From NCBI GenBank assembly GCA_035703635.1, contig DASSXV010000074.1, positions 1 through 64,000 on the forward strand: a stretch of DNA of 64,000 nt. Reading direction: 5' to 3'. Source of the DNA: Trueperaceae bacterium (GTDB lineage: Bacteria > Deinococcota > Deinococci > Deinococcales > Trueperaceae). Position numbers: made by a program. Every line of letters begins with the position of its first letter. Position 1 is the stretch's first letter. Positions 39,001-42,000 of the stretch are shown here, one piece after another.

Positions 39001-42000
39001 GCCCGCATCCGGATAGAAGGGTGGACCCATTCCCCCTACTTTGTAAGGCCGGCCTTCACGATTCGAGATACCATTAGGAGTTACAGCGCGGAACTCGAGT
39101 CCGTCAGGTTCAGGTCAGTTCCGGTATTCAAGAGTCAAGAGGCCGCCATCAAAAGCGAGCGTGTTTGGCCTCCGTACTATTGCTCAAGTGGCCGAATCAT
39201 AGTCACACTTGGCCGTGATTACCCGAGGGGGACCTAAGAAGAACGGCCCAAAACAAAATCGGCTCGAACCCCGTCGGGTTCGAGCCGTCTAATTCGACAA
39301 TTCAGCCAAATCGGCTGATTTACCGCTGCGAGAAGAGTACACCTGCGGAGCCGATAATTGGCATACTGACAATGATGGCAAAAACTACTGCTGCGAAGAT
39401 GCGCTTACCAGTGTTCTTCATCCCAAATCCCATCCTTCCGAAGTCCGCCACACTTGGCGTCTAGCGCTGCGTACAGCCTCCCGAGCATTTGTACGCAACT
39501 GCCGGGAGCTAGTGTCCCAGCCAGGCGCACCACTGGCGCGCCTCTCAAAAATCTGAAGGGATTTGTCGCTGTGGAGCTCGAACTCCCGACTCCTCCCAGC
39601 CTCTTCCAACACGCACCGCTCCCACGATGCGAGTCGATCCTGATCTCCCAATCAAGGCGACTGACAAGACCTTAGCAAGGCCGACGACATTATGCAAGAC
39701 CTGCCCGCTCAATGTTACAACCCCGGATACCACATATATGCGGCCCGACCGGGTGTAGCGCTACGAATACCGTGAGTTGGCAAGGTCGCCGTCCCGTCGT
39801 ATATAGTCACAGCAATGCTCCGCTGGCAAACCTTCATGCCTTTCCAGGAAGCGGCGTCTTAGCCGTGGTTCCGATTCCTGGGGCACTAAGGAGCCGGGTT
39901 GACGAACTCGTTTCCTCTAGATTTCCTGGCGTACGCCTGGAAAGCGAAGTGCAGGGGTGGGCGTTCCTCGAGCAGTTCGAGAATGGAATTGAGGCCTACC
40001 TTGCAATTCCAGAACCTACCGCAAGAGATGATCGCTGGGTCGGAGTTTGCTATTTCCAAGCATTGCGCGATATGGACGCCCTTGAAGCTCTCTATCGGGC
40101 TGTAGACCGCGGGGAAGAAGGGGCACGCGTCTATCTGGGACACGTGCTCCCCTTCGTTGAACGACGTGAGGACGCCCAGTCCGAGATGGCTCGGGTTGAC
40201 CTAAGCAGACTGAATAATTACGACACCGCTCTCTTTTACCGAATCCTTAGTATCAGCGAAGAGACCAGCGGAAACCTACGCGAAGCTTTGAAGGCTGCAG
40301 AAATTGCCTGGCGTCGAATCCAGGGCGTACCTGAATACAACGTCCTGGCGCCGTCAATCCTCGTTCAACTGGCGGTGCTGTATGGCCGTATTGGGCGGTC
40401 ACAACGCGCATTGTGGTTTCTTGAGCGAAGCCTAGTTGGAACTTCTGGAGCCGAACAAGCCAAAGTTAAGCTACGACGCGCGGCTGTGTTGATCAACCTA
40501 GGGCGTCATCGTGAAGCTCATGTTGACTTAGATTCATTTGACTTGGAAAGTGCTCCAGCTACTTTTCAAGCTGAACGGAACTGGCTACTGGGAGAAATTG
40601 CGTGGGCCAGTAGCAGCATGGGCTTAGCAATAAAACGCTACTTGGCCGCCATTGATATTGCCACCGAACTCCAGTTCAACTACGAGGAGTTCCTCTGCCG
40701 CTTGCCGTTGGTGTGCATCTTGGGTTCCCGCGGTGATCACGCGGAGGCGTACGACCACCTCATGCGCGCGCAAACGCTCATTTCCGATAAGTCGGATAGG
40801 CTCACGTTTCGCTTCCGCGAGGTGCTCCTCAACTTCTGGACCAAGCGTTACACCGTCAGCCACGCCATTCAGGAGTTCGAGGGACTAATGCAGGCCTTCG
40901 GCGAGATGGGTCTGCTGCAGGAGCAGGCGGCGGTTCAGCTGCACTACGCGGACCTCCTAAGGATCAGCGGTCGGGATGGCTGGCAACGGCAACTAGATGA
41001 ACTTCAGGCCCTCAGCGTTTCGCTCCAGAACCAAGCGCTGCTCGCTAGGGAGTGGACGCTGCTGCCCGAGCTGCACCACATTGCGTTCCGTACGCACCCG
41101 CGCATTGCAGGCACGGCCGTCGAGGTTCTCGAGATCTTCACCATGGGTGACGAGCGCATGCTGCTGGACGACAAGCCGGTGCACATTCCGCTCAGGCGCG
41201 GCGTGGAGCTCATGGCGTACTTCCTTGAGTACAGGGCCGTGTCGTTGAAGAAGGTCCTGCTAGACGTCTTCCCCGACGAGAAACCCTCGGCGGCCAAGTC
41301 TTACTTCCACCAGTTCCGCCACCAGCTGCGTGAGTCGCTTAACGGTGTAGAGATCGAGTACGACTCTGAATCGAAGCTCTACCGCTTGAAGAGCGAGATC
41401 GACGTGCTGTGGGACGTAAGTGAACTGCGTGCAGGACGCGTTATGGGTGAGACGGGCATCTTCCTCCCATCGTCTGGCAACGAGTGGGCGTACTTGCTTG
41501 ACCAAGATCTCGACAAGTTCCGCTCGGGGCTCTAAACACTGCCTGGCACGTGCGAACGTCACAGCGGCGCGTCAGCTGGTTCTGGCATCATGGCCGTGCA
41601 TGAGGCCCCCGCCATGCTCCTGTCAGAATCCCGTCATGTGTGCTTTGTAGGCTAGGGGCGTGGACTTGAGGTAACACTCCCATTACCTCCTCCCATCCTC
41701 TTCCGAACGGAACCCCGCGCCTCCCACGCGGGGTTCGACCATTTAATGACGTGCAGCACGGCGCAAACTGCTCGTCTGGGCCGGGTTCTCGCCCCTCCAT
41801 GTGCCAGCGTGTAAGAAACTTGTAAGTCCCACTGCGTAACCTAGAGCCGTGGACTTGAGGTAACACTCCCATTACCTCCTCCCATCCTCTTCCGAACTGA
41901 GCCCCGCGCCTCCCACGCGGGGTTCGCCCTTTCTCCCCTGTCCAAGCGCCGCGTGCGCTCGCCACGTTGGGCAACGGCCAAACGTGCCCTGGCACCTTGC

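What a model noticed while it worked through the whole genome (the two positions that open the first line are those of the whole stretch)
41619..41939. New family-specific small RNA with three CCUCCC (anti-Shine-Dalgarno-like) motifs, present as a tandem pair upstream of [...]
Two tandem copies (model matches at 41654-41750 and 41843-41939, each preceded by a conserved promoter-like block) of a roughly 100-120-nt RNA. It has a hairpin with a CUCCC loop, a single-stranded CCUCCCAUCCUCUUCC stretch, and a terminator whose loop CCUCCCA is invariant. The element is confined to the genome's family (probably Trueperaceae), is often multi-copy, is not in Rfam, and is covered at high depth by metatranscriptome contigs.
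Evidence so far: - **Discovery and alignment.** A 93% repeat in the genome. 34 copies from 32 loci were aligned. - **Structure.** 95.0% of cells pair against 88.8% in shuffles. Eight pairs change on both sides (0 of 500 shuffles), slid controls pair at 35-52%, and 7 of 10 terminator pairs covary. - **Model search.** Own-genome hits score 108.8 and 105.4 bits. In the order sample the element is in 27 of 36 genomes of family f1, 0 of 95 in three other families, and 1 weak hit of 19 in a fourth. - **Rfam.** Nothing at gathering thresholds. At E<=10 only ar14, at 16 bits against 58.8. - **Expression.** RNA-run contig depth over the element is 679-7066, against 82 over the upstream gene in X15 and 18-40 against 0 [...]
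(Added by a program. Inside this text positions count along the whole contig: contig position 1 is position 1 of the stretch shown here. "Call 12" and the like, gene names such as g00115 and contig names such as C1 are that model's own, and its searches are not shown. The text may have been shortened before it was handed on; [...] marks where a part breaks off. The agent that wrote the report below was given it as the finding of a first reader that could run no searches.)

Follow-up and report, generated by a model that had tools for sequence, protein, structure and literature searches.

The report
Trueperaceae anti-Shine-Dalgarno small RNA pair
Two tandem copies of a roughly 86-base, C-rich small RNA gene found only in one bacterial family sit just downstream of a likely activator gene, and they share a promoter type with pilus and c-di-GMP signalling genes.

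Summary
Two 92%-identical copies lie at 41647-41743 and 41836-41932 (+). Each has a conserved promoter block, a hairpin with a CUCCC loop, a single-stranded CCUCCCAUCCUCUUCC linker and a covarying terminator hairpin with a CCUCCCA loop.

- **Distribution.** The element matches no Rfam family. By model search, and by a pattern scan of 185,579 species genomes, it is found only in Trueperaceae.
- **Not an rpsA leader.** rpsA follows in only 14 of 40 loci and has its own promoter-like site.
- **Hairpin 1.** With 40 divergent paralogs included, hairpin 1 also covaries (7 of 7 pairs).
- **Promoter.** GTAAGAA-N4-GTAAG-N10-TAnnCT has two 11-bp-spaced direct repeats, the 3' one 8 bp from the -10. The same block precedes type IV pilin and GGDEF/EAL genes.
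- **Neighbour.** The gene just upstream (39712-41535) ends in a domain whose model best matches the SARP activators EmbR and AfsR (Z 12-12.6). It co-occurs with the RNA and lies next to it in many genera.

Best reading: a trans-acting anti-Shine-Dalgarno sRNA, a convergent analogue of alphaproteobacterial cuckoo/NfeR1 RNAs, probably switched on by that regulator. Targets, transcript ends and strand are not shown experimentally.

The parts
39565..39646 (+). Third, degenerate copy of the sRNA. It keeps CUCCC, CUCCUCCCAGCCUCUUCC and a CUCCCA hairpin loop, lacks the promoter block, and lies upstream of the regulator gene.
   Evidence: R1 hit at 19.1 bits, E 8.9e-5 in the window. Sequence read. A like-placed 21.5-bit hit occurs in same-genus genome G045.
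39712..41535 (+). Gene for a TPR protein with a C-terminal SARP-like winged-helix DNA-binding domain; the putative activator. The true start is probably GTG 39865, giving 556 aa like the homologs.
   Evidence: ORF. Weak TPR_12 match. Homologs are mostly 545-572 aa. Start codon read.
41116..41532 (+). C-terminal 139 residues of that protein: an OmpR-type DNA-binding domain plus the first helices of a BTA-like domain.
   Evidence: AlphaFold2 model, pLDDT 95.8, pTM 0.90. Foldseek top hits AfsR 8hvr_I (E 4.7e-4, TMq 0.74) and EmbR. VIA-align gives EmbR Z 12.6 (134 aligned, 2.5 A) and AfsR Z 12.0-12.3, against 8.8 or less for OmpR/PhoB domains. No Pfam Trans_reg_C or BTAD hit at E<=1.
41622..41653 (+). 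Promoter block of copy 1: direct repeats GTCAGAA (41622-41628) and GTCATGT (41633-41639), then the -10-like TAGGCT (41648-41653).
   Evidence: The block is aligned in 47 of 47 distinct copies. PWM score 25.9.
41660..41745 (+). sRNA copy 1; the start is predicted from the -10 and the 3' end is uncertain. Hairpin 1 is 41668-41674 with 41683-41689, loop CACUCCCA. The linker is 41690-41709. The terminator stem is 41710-41719 with 41727-41736, loop CCUCCCA 41720-41726. The T run is 41742-41744.
   Evidence: RNA-run contig depth.
41811..41842 (+). Promoter block of copy 2: GTAAGAA, GTAAGTC, then the -10-like TAACCT (41837-41842).
   Evidence: PWM score 40.8, the best in the genome.
41849..41934 (+). 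sRNA copy 2, with the same architecture shifted by 189 nt. The terminator loop CCUCCCA is at 41909-41915.
41997..42026 (+). Promoter-like site belonging to rpsA itself: TTGCAA, 18 nt, TGTAAT.
   Evidence: Read; it was not reported by the scanner. RNA-run contigs resume at 42040-42049, which is weak support.
42070..44184 (+). rpsA, ribosomal protein S1: 704 aa, five S1 domains and a long N-terminal extension. It is a neighbour, not part of the element.
   Evidence: Pfam S1, E 3.9e-80.

Best explanation
Each copy is an independent gene for a small RNA of about 86 nt, on the + strand. Transcription is predicted to start about 7 nt after a -10-like TAnnCT and to stop at a G+C-rich hairpin.

**Promoter (inferred).** There is no -35 element. 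Instead there are two, sometimes three, direct GTAAGAA repeats with an 11-bp period, the last one 8 bp from the -10. This is the layout used by SARP-type activators. The likely activator is the TPR protein encoded just upstream, whose C-terminal domain has the SARP fold.

**Regulon (inferred).** The same block precedes type IV pilin and GGDEF/EAL genes. The RNA would therefore be the post-transcriptional arm of a pilus and c-di-GMP regulon.

**Action (inferred).** The RNA displays three C-rich motifs in unpaired places: CUCCC in loop 1, CCUCCCAUCCUCUUCC in the linker and CCUCCCA in the terminator loop. The hairpin-1 3' stem and linker share ACCUCCU with the 3' end of the organism's own 16S rRNA. 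The motifs would pair with GGAGG-type Shine-Dalgarno sequences of several mRNAs and block translation initiation, as shown for NfeR1 and the alphaproteobacterial cuckoo RNAs.

**Shown here:** the sequence family, the structure, its distribution, the shared promoter block, the fold of the neighbouring protein, and high depth in RNA libraries.

**Inferred only:** the transcription start, the activator-promoter link, the pairing mechanism and all targets.
For: **Gene-like anatomy.**
- The block GTAAGAAnnnnGTAAG-N10-TAnnCT-N6-CGTGGA sits at fixed spacing in 47 of 47 distinct copies.
- The terminator hairpin covaries in 6 of 10 pairs on a MAFFT alignment. In the 40 divergent copies all 17 pairs change on both sides, with 95.2% paired against 75.3% in shuffles and 38-47% when slid.
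- G-U pairs and the downstream T runs fit the + strand only.

**Independence from rpsA.**
- rpsA is downstream in 14 of 40 true loci.
- Among the other 26 loci, 8 have an ABC ATPase gene on the strand opposite the RNA, 6 have a 2-hydroxyacid dehydrogenase gene on the same strand as the RNA, and 2 have a Rep3 plasmid initiator gene beside the element.

**Distribution.**
- f1 has it in 27 of 36 genomes by model and 51 of 101 by BLAST.
- A 21-base core pattern scanned over 185,579 species genomes gave 43 loci. Forty are confirmed by the model. By record title these are mostly Trueperaceae or unnamed MAGs, and a few carry other Deinococcota-level labels. One locus labelled Ferruginibacter has flanking genes 83-87% identical to the window's. 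The 3 unconfirmed loci are chance hits.

**Expression.** X5 contig depth is 535-7474 over the element against 82 over the upstream gene. X6 gives 12.7 against 3.4.

**Shared promoter.**
- A PWM scan of the own genome puts a pilin gene (35.0), an AMP-ligase (21.5), a minor pilin (18.3), a GGDEF-NACHT protein (15.8) and a GGDEF-EAL protein (13.6) right after the two RNA copies.
- The pattern occurs 15 times in 5 family genomes against 0 for its reversed control. Those sites include pilin, GGDEF-EAL, TPR-GGDEF and EAL-PAS genes.
- The repeat lies within 250 nt upstream of the pilin match, mostly at 120-142 nt, in 17 of 30 loci. The background is 9 hits in 179 kb.

**Regulator.**
- SARP fold.
- The published SARP promoter rule is direct repeats at 11 or 22 bp with the 3' repeat 8 bp from the -10 (PMC10936776, introduction passages).
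- The gene is single-copy and found in 44 of 101 genomes.
- My hand-made 2x2 table: both 37, regulator only 7, RNA only 14, neither 43.

**Anti-SD reading.**
- The own 16S rRNA ends in GGAUCACCUCCUUUCU.
- In a crude tally restricted to ORFs that have a GGAG or GAGG just upstream, GGAGG was the commonest of eight tested motifs, in 255 of 738.
- NfeR1 silences ntrB through its redundant aSD seeds and is Hfq-independent (PMC10746234, passages).
Against: - **No target is identified.** A genome-wide duplex scan gave only generic G-rich hits, most not at start codons. Pilin leaders show no complementarity beyond an ordinary SD.
- **Strand and ends are not measured.** Only assembled contigs could be laid.
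- **Termination looks leaky.** X5 contigs also cover the spacer between the copies (41744-41817) at depth 5196-7474. Terminator 1 may therefore be read through, or the pair may be made as one precursor.
- **One contig starts too early.** An X6 contig begins at 41631, upstream of the predicted start.
- **The promoter scanner found nothing here**, as expected for an activator-dependent promoter without a -35.
- **The regulator link rests on adjacency, co-occurrence among related genomes and fold.**
  - The protein has no Pfam Trans_reg_C or BTAD match.
  - The sequence match to EmbR is not significant (E 0.83).
  - 5 of the 18 pilin loci with the block (the 17 plus L181) are in genomes where the regulator was not found.
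- **The pair counts** come from an alignment fitted to the model.
Confidence: 0.55

Rival explanations
1. The RNA acts by binding a protein or the ribosome rather than mRNAs. For example, its pyrimidine-rich single strand could serve as a decoy or platform for ribosomal protein S1, whose gene is often next door, or as a mimic of the 16S 3' end that titrates a factor.
For: - rpsA is the downstream neighbour in 14 of 40 loci across several genera.
- In X5 the RNA-run contig depth over the element is in the thousands, as over rpsA; contig depth cannot rank genes.
- No specific mRNA target emerged.
- The invariant CUCUUCCGA stretch is more conserved than a generic anti-SD would need.
Against: - No protein-binding motif was tested or is testable here.
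- 26 of 40 loci have no rpsA nearby.
- Closely analogous C-rich RNAs work by base pairing (PMC10746234, passages).
Confidence: 0.15
2. It is a cis-acting leader or attenuator of rpsA. Transcription starts at the element, and the hairpins control read-through into rpsA.
For: - Same strand, 130 nt upstream of rpsA, in 14 of 40 loci.
- The terminators have weak U tracts, and contigs cross terminator 1.
Against: - 26 of 40 loci have other neighbours, including genes on the strand opposite the RNA.
- rpsA has its own TTGCAA-18-TGTAAT site.
- The element is duplicated, each copy with its own promoter block.
Confidence: 0.07
3. It is a 3'-UTR or terminator module of the upstream regulator gene, copied around the genome, with no trans function of its own.
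For: - It lies directly downstream of the regulator gene on the same strand in about 19 genomes.
- An X5 contig joins the gene's 3' end to the element, and an X6 contig starts at 41631.
- Weak model hits in other families are gene-end terminators with CCUCCC loops.
Against: - A conserved promoter block with fixed spacing precedes every one of 47 distinct copies, including those far from the regulator.
- Depth over the element is 6 to 90 times that of the gene in X5.
- Loop and linker sequences are far more conserved than a terminator needs.
Confidence: 0.08

Closest known systems
Alphaproteobacterial cuckoo / alpha-r14 family (Rfam RF02344 ar14; NfeR1, CcsR1-4, SmelC397)
   Same: - Small trans-encoded RNAs that carry several copies of a C-rich anti-SD motif in unpaired regions.
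- Stems vary through compensatory changes.
- For NfeR1, pairing at ribosome binding sites is shown, and it is Hfq-independent.

Sources: PMC4615179 and PMC10746234, passages only.
   Different: - No homology: 16.1 and 15.0 bits against a gathering score of 58.8.
- A different phylum.
- Only one full CCUCCUCCC, spanning the 3' stem of hairpin 1 and the linker. The loops carry CUCCC and CCUCCCA.
- Two hairpins plus a long single-stranded linker, rather than 2-4 equal hairpin modules.
- A SARP-type direct-repeat promoter.
RoxS/RsaE of Firmicutes (recalled, not read here)
   Same: A C-rich-motif sRNA that pairs with G-rich SD regions without Hfq. This is recalled from memory.
   Different: No Rfam match at E<=10 in the region. 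Different motifs (CCCC), architecture and taxon.
SARP activators AfsR and EmbR and their promoters
   Same: - The neighbour protein's C-terminal domain superposes on EmbR (Z 12.6) and AfsR (Z 12.0-12.3).
- The promoter has 11-bp-spaced direct repeats with the 3' repeat 8 bp from the -10, as stated for SARP targets (PMC10936776, passages).
- AfsR also carries a TPR domain (PMC10936776, abstract and passages).
   Different: - The domain order is reversed: TPR first and the DNA-binding domain last.
- No NOD domain was detected.
- No Pfam Trans_reg_C or BTAD match.
- Deinococcota rather than Actinomycetota.
- The regulon holds pilins, c-di-GMP enzymes and sRNAs rather than antibiotic clusters.

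Membership tests
Rfam ar14 / cuckoo RNA family | Covariance-model score at or above the gathering score (58.8 bits) | tested here: not met
   16.1 and 15.0 bits for the two copies. 19.3 bits for a type B relative.
Rfam ar14 / cuckoo RNA family | 2-4 adjacent hairpins, each with CCUCCUCCC in its loop (PMC4615179 abstract) | tested here: not met
   The loops read CACUCCCA and CCUCCCA. The only CCUCCUCCC spans the 3' stem of hairpin 1 and the linker.
Rfam ar14 / cuckoo RNA family | Anti-SD-like motifs exposed in unpaired regions | tested here: met
   The minimum-free-energy and consensus structures leave all three motifs unpaired or in loops.
Self-contained bacterial sRNA gene | A conserved promoter of its own and a structured terminator, independent of flanking genes | tested here: met
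   The block is present in 47 of 47 copies. The terminator covaries. There are at least four genomic contexts.
Self-contained bacterial sRNA gene | A discrete transcript with defined 5' and 3' ends on one strand | not testable with these tools
   Only Logan contigs were available. Depth is high, but there are no ends or strand, and the spacer between the copies is also covered.
rpsA (S1) leader | A constant position directly upstream of rpsA | tested here: not met
   14 of 40 loci.
Pho box / PhoB regulon promoter | The same direct-repeat box upstream of pstS | tested here: not met
   In the own-genome pstS-pstB locus (C82), the best PWM score upstream of pstS is -21, against 26-41 at the sRNA promoters.
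SARP regulators (neighbour protein) | An OmpR-type DNA-binding domain followed by BTA helices (fold) | tested here: met
   EmbR Z 12.6 with 134 of 139 residues aligned, and AfsR Z 12.0-12.3. Both stand about 3.5 Z units above OmpR/PhoB domains. Foldseek E 4.7e-4.
SARP regulators (neighbour protein) | Sequence membership (Pfam Trans_reg_C plus BTAD) | tested here: not met
   No such hit at E<=5 or E<=1. EmbR by phmmer gives E 0.83.
SARP regulators (neighbour protein) | Target promoters with direct repeats at an 11-bp period and the 3' repeat 8 bp from the -10 | tested here: met
   Seen in the alignment of 47 promoters. The rule is taken from PMC10936776. Binding itself is not testable here.

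The most novel reading that the evidence does not exclude
A reversed-architecture SARP-like TPR regulator and a set of multi-copy RNAs that mimic the 16S 3' end (type A, type B and a degenerate leader copy) form one module. This module couples type IV pilus and c-di-GMP gene transcription to a global damping of Shine-Dalgarno-dependent translation in Trueperaceae. It would be an sRNA-based surface-behaviour switch that arose independently of the alphaproteobacterial cuckoo RNAs.
Probability: 0.25. Interest if true: 0.75.

Novelty: new variant of a known kind. Interest (0 to 1): 0.62.

Why it matters
My full-text searches found no paper describing a small RNA in Trueperaceae.

- **Convergence.** This family would be a second, independent invention of the 'several anti-SD motifs on one small RNA' design known from alphaproteobacteria.
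- **A ready-made handle.** It comes with a sharply defined promoter box and a candidate activator encoded next door. The same box marks pilin and c-di-GMP genes, which gives a testable regulon for surface behaviour in a poorly studied group common in sludge and saline soils.
- **A wider SARP fold.** The regulator would also carry the SARP fold outside actinomycetes, in a new domain order.

Tried and rejected
- **Pho-box idea.** The repeat layout resembles a Pho box, but pstS has no such block.
- **Target search.**
  - A genome-wide search used 7-mer seeds plus RNAduplex. The top hits were the antisense strands of the copies themselves, followed by generic G-rich stretches, mostly not at start codons. 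I drew no conclusion from it.
  - The pilin SD region pairs with CUCUUCCGA in the own genus only (UCGGAAGGAG). This is not conserved in 17 pilin leaders.
- **Weak model hits outside the family**. I aligned 15 of the 19 non-f1 hits plus one f1 hit (G056). I read the upstream sequence of 8 non-f1 hits: they are a tRNA with its terminator, coding sequence, or gene-end terminators, and none has the block. The G056 hit is a type B copy that does have the block.
- **Structure prediction.** RNAalifold on the MAFFT alignment mis-drew hairpin 1, so I supplied the structure by hand.
- **Promoter scanner.** It found nothing in 41400-42200.
- **Uncovered stretch.** No RNA contig covered 41892-42039 in the four runs. 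I do not treat this as evidence of termination.
- **Small-ORF readings.** GUG GAC UUG AGG UAA on the + strand, and a roughly 32-codon frame on the - strand, were rejected by eye on the alignments. The stop and the frame are not kept in divergent copies.
- **Unavailable or weak sources.** The search of earlier findings was not open. The literature searches for Truepera small RNA, for Deinococcus sRNA with anti-Shine-Dalgarno, for Trueperaceae with type IV pili, and for SARP with Deinococcus gave nothing relevant.
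Full report
**1. What is in the sequence**

Bases 41647-41743 and 41836-41932 are two direct copies, 92% identical and 189 nt apart.

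They lie between two genes on the same strand:
- A 607-codon ORF (39712-41535) with weak TPR matches.
- rpsA (42070-44184), which has five S1 domains.

Folded as RNA, the + strand of each copy gives:
- Hairpin 1, GAGGUAA/UUACCUC, with loop CACUCCCA.
- An unpaired linker, CUCCCAUCCUCUUCCGAACG.
- A 10-bp G+C-rich hairpin with loop CCUCCCA, followed by a short T run.

The z-scores are -4.3 and -4.6, with 0 of 200 shuffles as stable. The - strand folds less well, at -2.1 and -2.9.

Rfam at E<=10 gives only ar14, at 16.1 and 15.0 bits against a gathering score of 58.8, plus a chance lncRNA hit.

**2. Relatives and structure**

A BLAST search of 101 genomes of the same family found the element in 51, across 21 of 36 genera.

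I aligned 32 copies (A1). On this MAFFT alignment, with a structure I wrote by hand:
- 94.0% of cells pair, against 87.6% in shuffles (0 of 500).
- Slid controls pair at 35-53%.
- 6 of 10 terminator pairs change on both sides.
- Hairpin 1 hardly varies: 1 of 7 pairs.

The model R1 built from A1 scores the two window copies at 107.2 and 104.7 bits. It also finds a third, degenerate copy at 39565-39646 (19.1 bits), just upstream of the TPR gene.

I then fetched 40 lower-scoring hits (27-75 bits) from family genomes. On their model-fitted alignment A3:
- All 17 pairs show changes on both sides, 7 of 7 in hairpin 1.
- 95.2% of cells pair, against 75.3% in shuffles (0 of 500) and 38-47% when slid.

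That alignment leans towards the model's structure. Even so, the stem replacements are plain to the eye: GAGGAU/AUCCUC, GAGGCGA/UUGCCUC and GGUGG/CCACC.

So both hairpins are real.

**3. A sister type**

A3 also shows a diverged paralog, which I call type B. It reads:
- ...GAGGG-loop-CCCUC,
- then CACCAUCUCCUCUCUUUG,
- then ACCCUGCG-CCCCCCA-CGCAGGGU.

It often has an extra 5' hairpin with a CUCCCCC loop.

The own genome has one copy on contig C36, at about 1899-1990 (+). It was found by BLAST and missed by R1.

Type B is not in Rfam either.

**4. Distribution**

In an order-wide sample of 151 genomes, R1 hits 27 of 36 genomes of family f1.

In the other families it hits f2 2/36, f3 4/23, f4 10/36 and f5 3/19 at E<=0.01. 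All of these score 26.9 bits or less.
- I aligned 15 of those 19, plus one f1 hit.
- I read the upstream sequence of 8 non-f1 hits. They are a tRNA with its terminator, coding sequence, or gene-end terminators with a CCUCCC loop. None has the promoter block.

A 21-base core pattern was scanned over one genome from each of 185,579 species and gave 43 loci.
- R1 confirms 41 copies in 40 loci.
- The 3 unconfirmed loci (Microbacterium, a Pseudomonadota MAG and a Nitrospirota MAG) match the expected level of chance.
- By record title, the confirmed loci are mostly Trueperaceae or unnamed MAGs. A few carry other Deinococcota-level labels.
- One is labelled Ferruginibacter, but its flanking genes are 83-87% identical to the window's. 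It is therefore a mislabelled close relative.

Restriction to the family stands.

**5. Genomic context**

Of the 40 loci:
- 14 have rpsA downstream.
- 13 have the TPR gene upstream.

Among the remaining 26:
- 8 have an ABC ATPase gene on the strand opposite the RNA.
- 6 have a 2-hydroxyacid dehydrogenase gene on the same strand as the RNA.
- 5 have an RNase T-like gene beside the element.
- 2 have a Rep3 plasmid initiator gene beside the element.
- 6 had no informative Pfam hit.

rpsA has its own TTGCAA-18-TGTAAT site at 41997-42026. RNA-run contigs resume at 42040-42049. A role as the rpsA leader is therefore unlikely.

**6. The promoter block**

All 47 distinct copies carry the same upstream block at fixed spacing: (C/T)TGTAAGAAnnn(C/T)GTAAG, N10, TAnnCT, N6, CGTGGA.
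- There are two direct repeats 11 bp apart. A third lies 11 bp further up in about a third of the copies.
- The 3' heptamer ends 8 bp before the -10-like hexamer.
- Nothing resembles a -35.
- The start is predicted at about 41660 and 41849.

A PWM of the block was scanned over the own genome. After the two RNA copies (40.8 and 25.9), the hits rank as follows:
1. A type IV pilin gene (35.0).
2. An AMP-dependent ligase (21.5).
3. A minor pilin (18.3).
4. A GGDEF-NACHT protein (15.8).
5. A GGDEF-EAL protein (13.6).

In five further family genomes the pattern occurs 15 times, against 0 for its reversed control. Besides the sRNAs, those sites precede:
- In a same-genus genome, orthologs of the own-genome pilin, minor pilin, GGDEF-EAL and ligase genes.
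- In another genus, a TPR-GGDEF gene and an EAL-PAS gene.

Upstream of 30 pilin orthologs from 30 genomes, the repeat lies within 250 nt, mostly at 120-142 nt, in 17 loci. The background is 9 hits in 179 kb. An 18th locus has a 40.8-bit block before the first of two tandem pilins.

About 24 of the 40 divergent copies, type B copies in other genera among them, also carry the block; this count is by eye.

The pstS locus has no such block (best score -21). It is therefore not a Pho box.

**7. The neighbouring gene**

The last 139 residues of the TPR protein looked to me like an OmpR/SARP winged helix.

By sequence the evidence is weak:
- EmbR is the best PDB hit, at E 0.83.
- Pfam shows no Trans_reg_C or BTAD. 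It shows only a sub-threshold NNH6 match in 33 of 34 homologs.

By structure it is strong. The AlphaFold2 model, built from a 34-row alignment, has pLDDT 95.8.
- Foldseek ranks AfsR (E 4.7e-4, TMq 0.74) and EmbR first.
- VIA-align gives EmbR Z 12.6 (134 residues, 2.5 A) and AfsR Z 12.0-12.3. OmpR/PhoB domains reach 8.8 or less over about 88 residues.

SARP target promoters are described as having direct repeats 11 or 22 bp apart, with the 3' repeat 8 bp from the -10 (PMC10936776, introduction passages). That is exactly the layout found here.

The gene is single-copy and present in 44 of 101 family genomes.
- Cross-tabulated by hand: both 37, regulator only 7 (2 of these have the RNA by model), RNA only 14 (mostly fragmented assemblies), neither 43. 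Related genomes are not independent, so I give no test statistic.
- By coordinates, an RNA copy lies within 1.3 kb downstream on the same strand in 19 genomes of 11 genera.
- In a twelfth genus, two genomes cluster regulator, pilin and RNA within 2.1 kb.

I infer, but have not shown, that this protein activates the block.

**8. Expression**

Only Logan contigs were available; no raw reads were offered.

| Run | Region | Depth |
|---|---|---|
| X5 | 41633-41891 (element) | 535-7474 |
| X5 | upstream gene | 82 |
| X5 | rpsA | up to 35757 |
| X6 | element | 12.7 |
| X6 | upstream gene | 3.4 |

X11 and X12 cover only rpsA.

Two results go against a simple picture:
- The spacer between the copies (41744-41817) is covered at 5196-7474. 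Terminator 1, which has a poor U tract, may therefore leak, or a dimeric precursor may exist.
- One X6 contig starts at 41631, upstream of the predicted start.

**9. Mechanism**

The three C-rich motifs sit in a loop, in a linker and in a loop.

The hairpin-1 3' stem and linker share ACCUCCU with the organism's own 16S 3' end, GGAUCACCUCCUUUCU.

In a crude tally restricted to ORFs that have a GGAG or GAGG just upstream, GGAGG was the commonest of eight tested motifs, in 255 of 738.

The closest functional precedent is the alpha-r14/cuckoo family:
- Three hairpins, each with CCUCCUCCC in an unpaired region.
- Redundant seeds.
- Hfq-independence (PMC10746234 and PMC4615179, passages only).

I therefore favour pairing with SD regions of several mRNAs.

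My own target search was uninformative. Protein binding, by S1 for example, remains a live rival.

**10. Verdict**

It is a new RNA family of a known functional kind, in a new phylum and with its own architecture.

The added value here is the SARP-type promoter, the candidate activator next door, and the link to pilin and c-di-GMP genes.

Papers:
- I read only passages of PMC4615179, PMC10746234 and PMC10936776.
- All other papers were seen as search listings.
- I opened no supplements.
- What I say about RoxS/RsaE and about Pho-box geometry is recalled from memory.

Noticed in passing
window 39565-39646 (+): A degenerate third copy of the sRNA, without the promoter block, sits about 220 nt upstream of the probable start of the regulator gene. 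A like-placed weak hit exists in same-genus genome G045. It could be a C-rich leader of the regulator mRNA or a decaying copy.
   Followed up: partly
own genome contig C36, about 1899-1990 (+), outside the window: Sister 'type B' sRNA with three hairpins (loops CUCCCCCUA, CUCAG, AUCCCCCA) and the linker CACCAUCUCCUCUCUUUG. It is widespread in the family. In other genera it is often preceded by the same GTAAG block, but not in this genus. It is not in Rfam.
   Followed up: partly
own genome C81:13563 and C81:19403 (+), C52:15039 (-), C76:15536 (-), C49:36428 (+): The same direct-repeat promoter block precedes a type IV pilin, a minor pilin, a GGDEF-EAL protein, a GGDEF-NACHT protein and an AMP-dependent ligase.
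   Followed up: yes
L170-L194 (pilin loci of 17 genomes): Pilin genes with the block have a conserved, structured 5' leader of about 95-130 nt: a hairpin, then CACUA, then a second hairpin with a CAUCAUCC-like stretch. In G018 (L181) the leader has a hairpin with a long C-rich loop.
   Followed up: no
L082, L056, L072 (same-genus genomes): In some genomes of the window's genus, the 88%-identical sRNA copy lies beside a Rep3-type plasmid replication initiator gene, near an MFS transporter gene. It may therefore ride on a plasmid or chromid there.
   Followed up: no
L076 (public record labelled uncultured Ferruginibacter sp.): This contig carries a tandem sRNA pair. Its TPR and S1 genes are 83-87% identical to the window's, so the taxonomic label is almost certainly wrong.
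   Followed up: partly
window 42070-42650 (+): The rpsA product has an N-terminal extension ahead of the first S1 domain. Pfam's best S1 stretch begins at residue 270 of 704.
   Followed up: no
window 44221-44257 (both strands): A G+C-rich hairpin (CCCCGCG...CGCGGGG) just after rpsA resembles the sRNA terminator stem. R1 hits it weakly on both strands (14.1 and 11.3 bits). It is probably the rpsA terminator.
   Followed up: no
L121 (G036:C1, block-driven transcript before a 244-aa secreted protein): The 5' region reads GAAGAGGAGG...GGGUAAGAGGAU, which is G-rich and partly complementary to the sRNA linker. It is a possible target or sponge.
   Followed up: no
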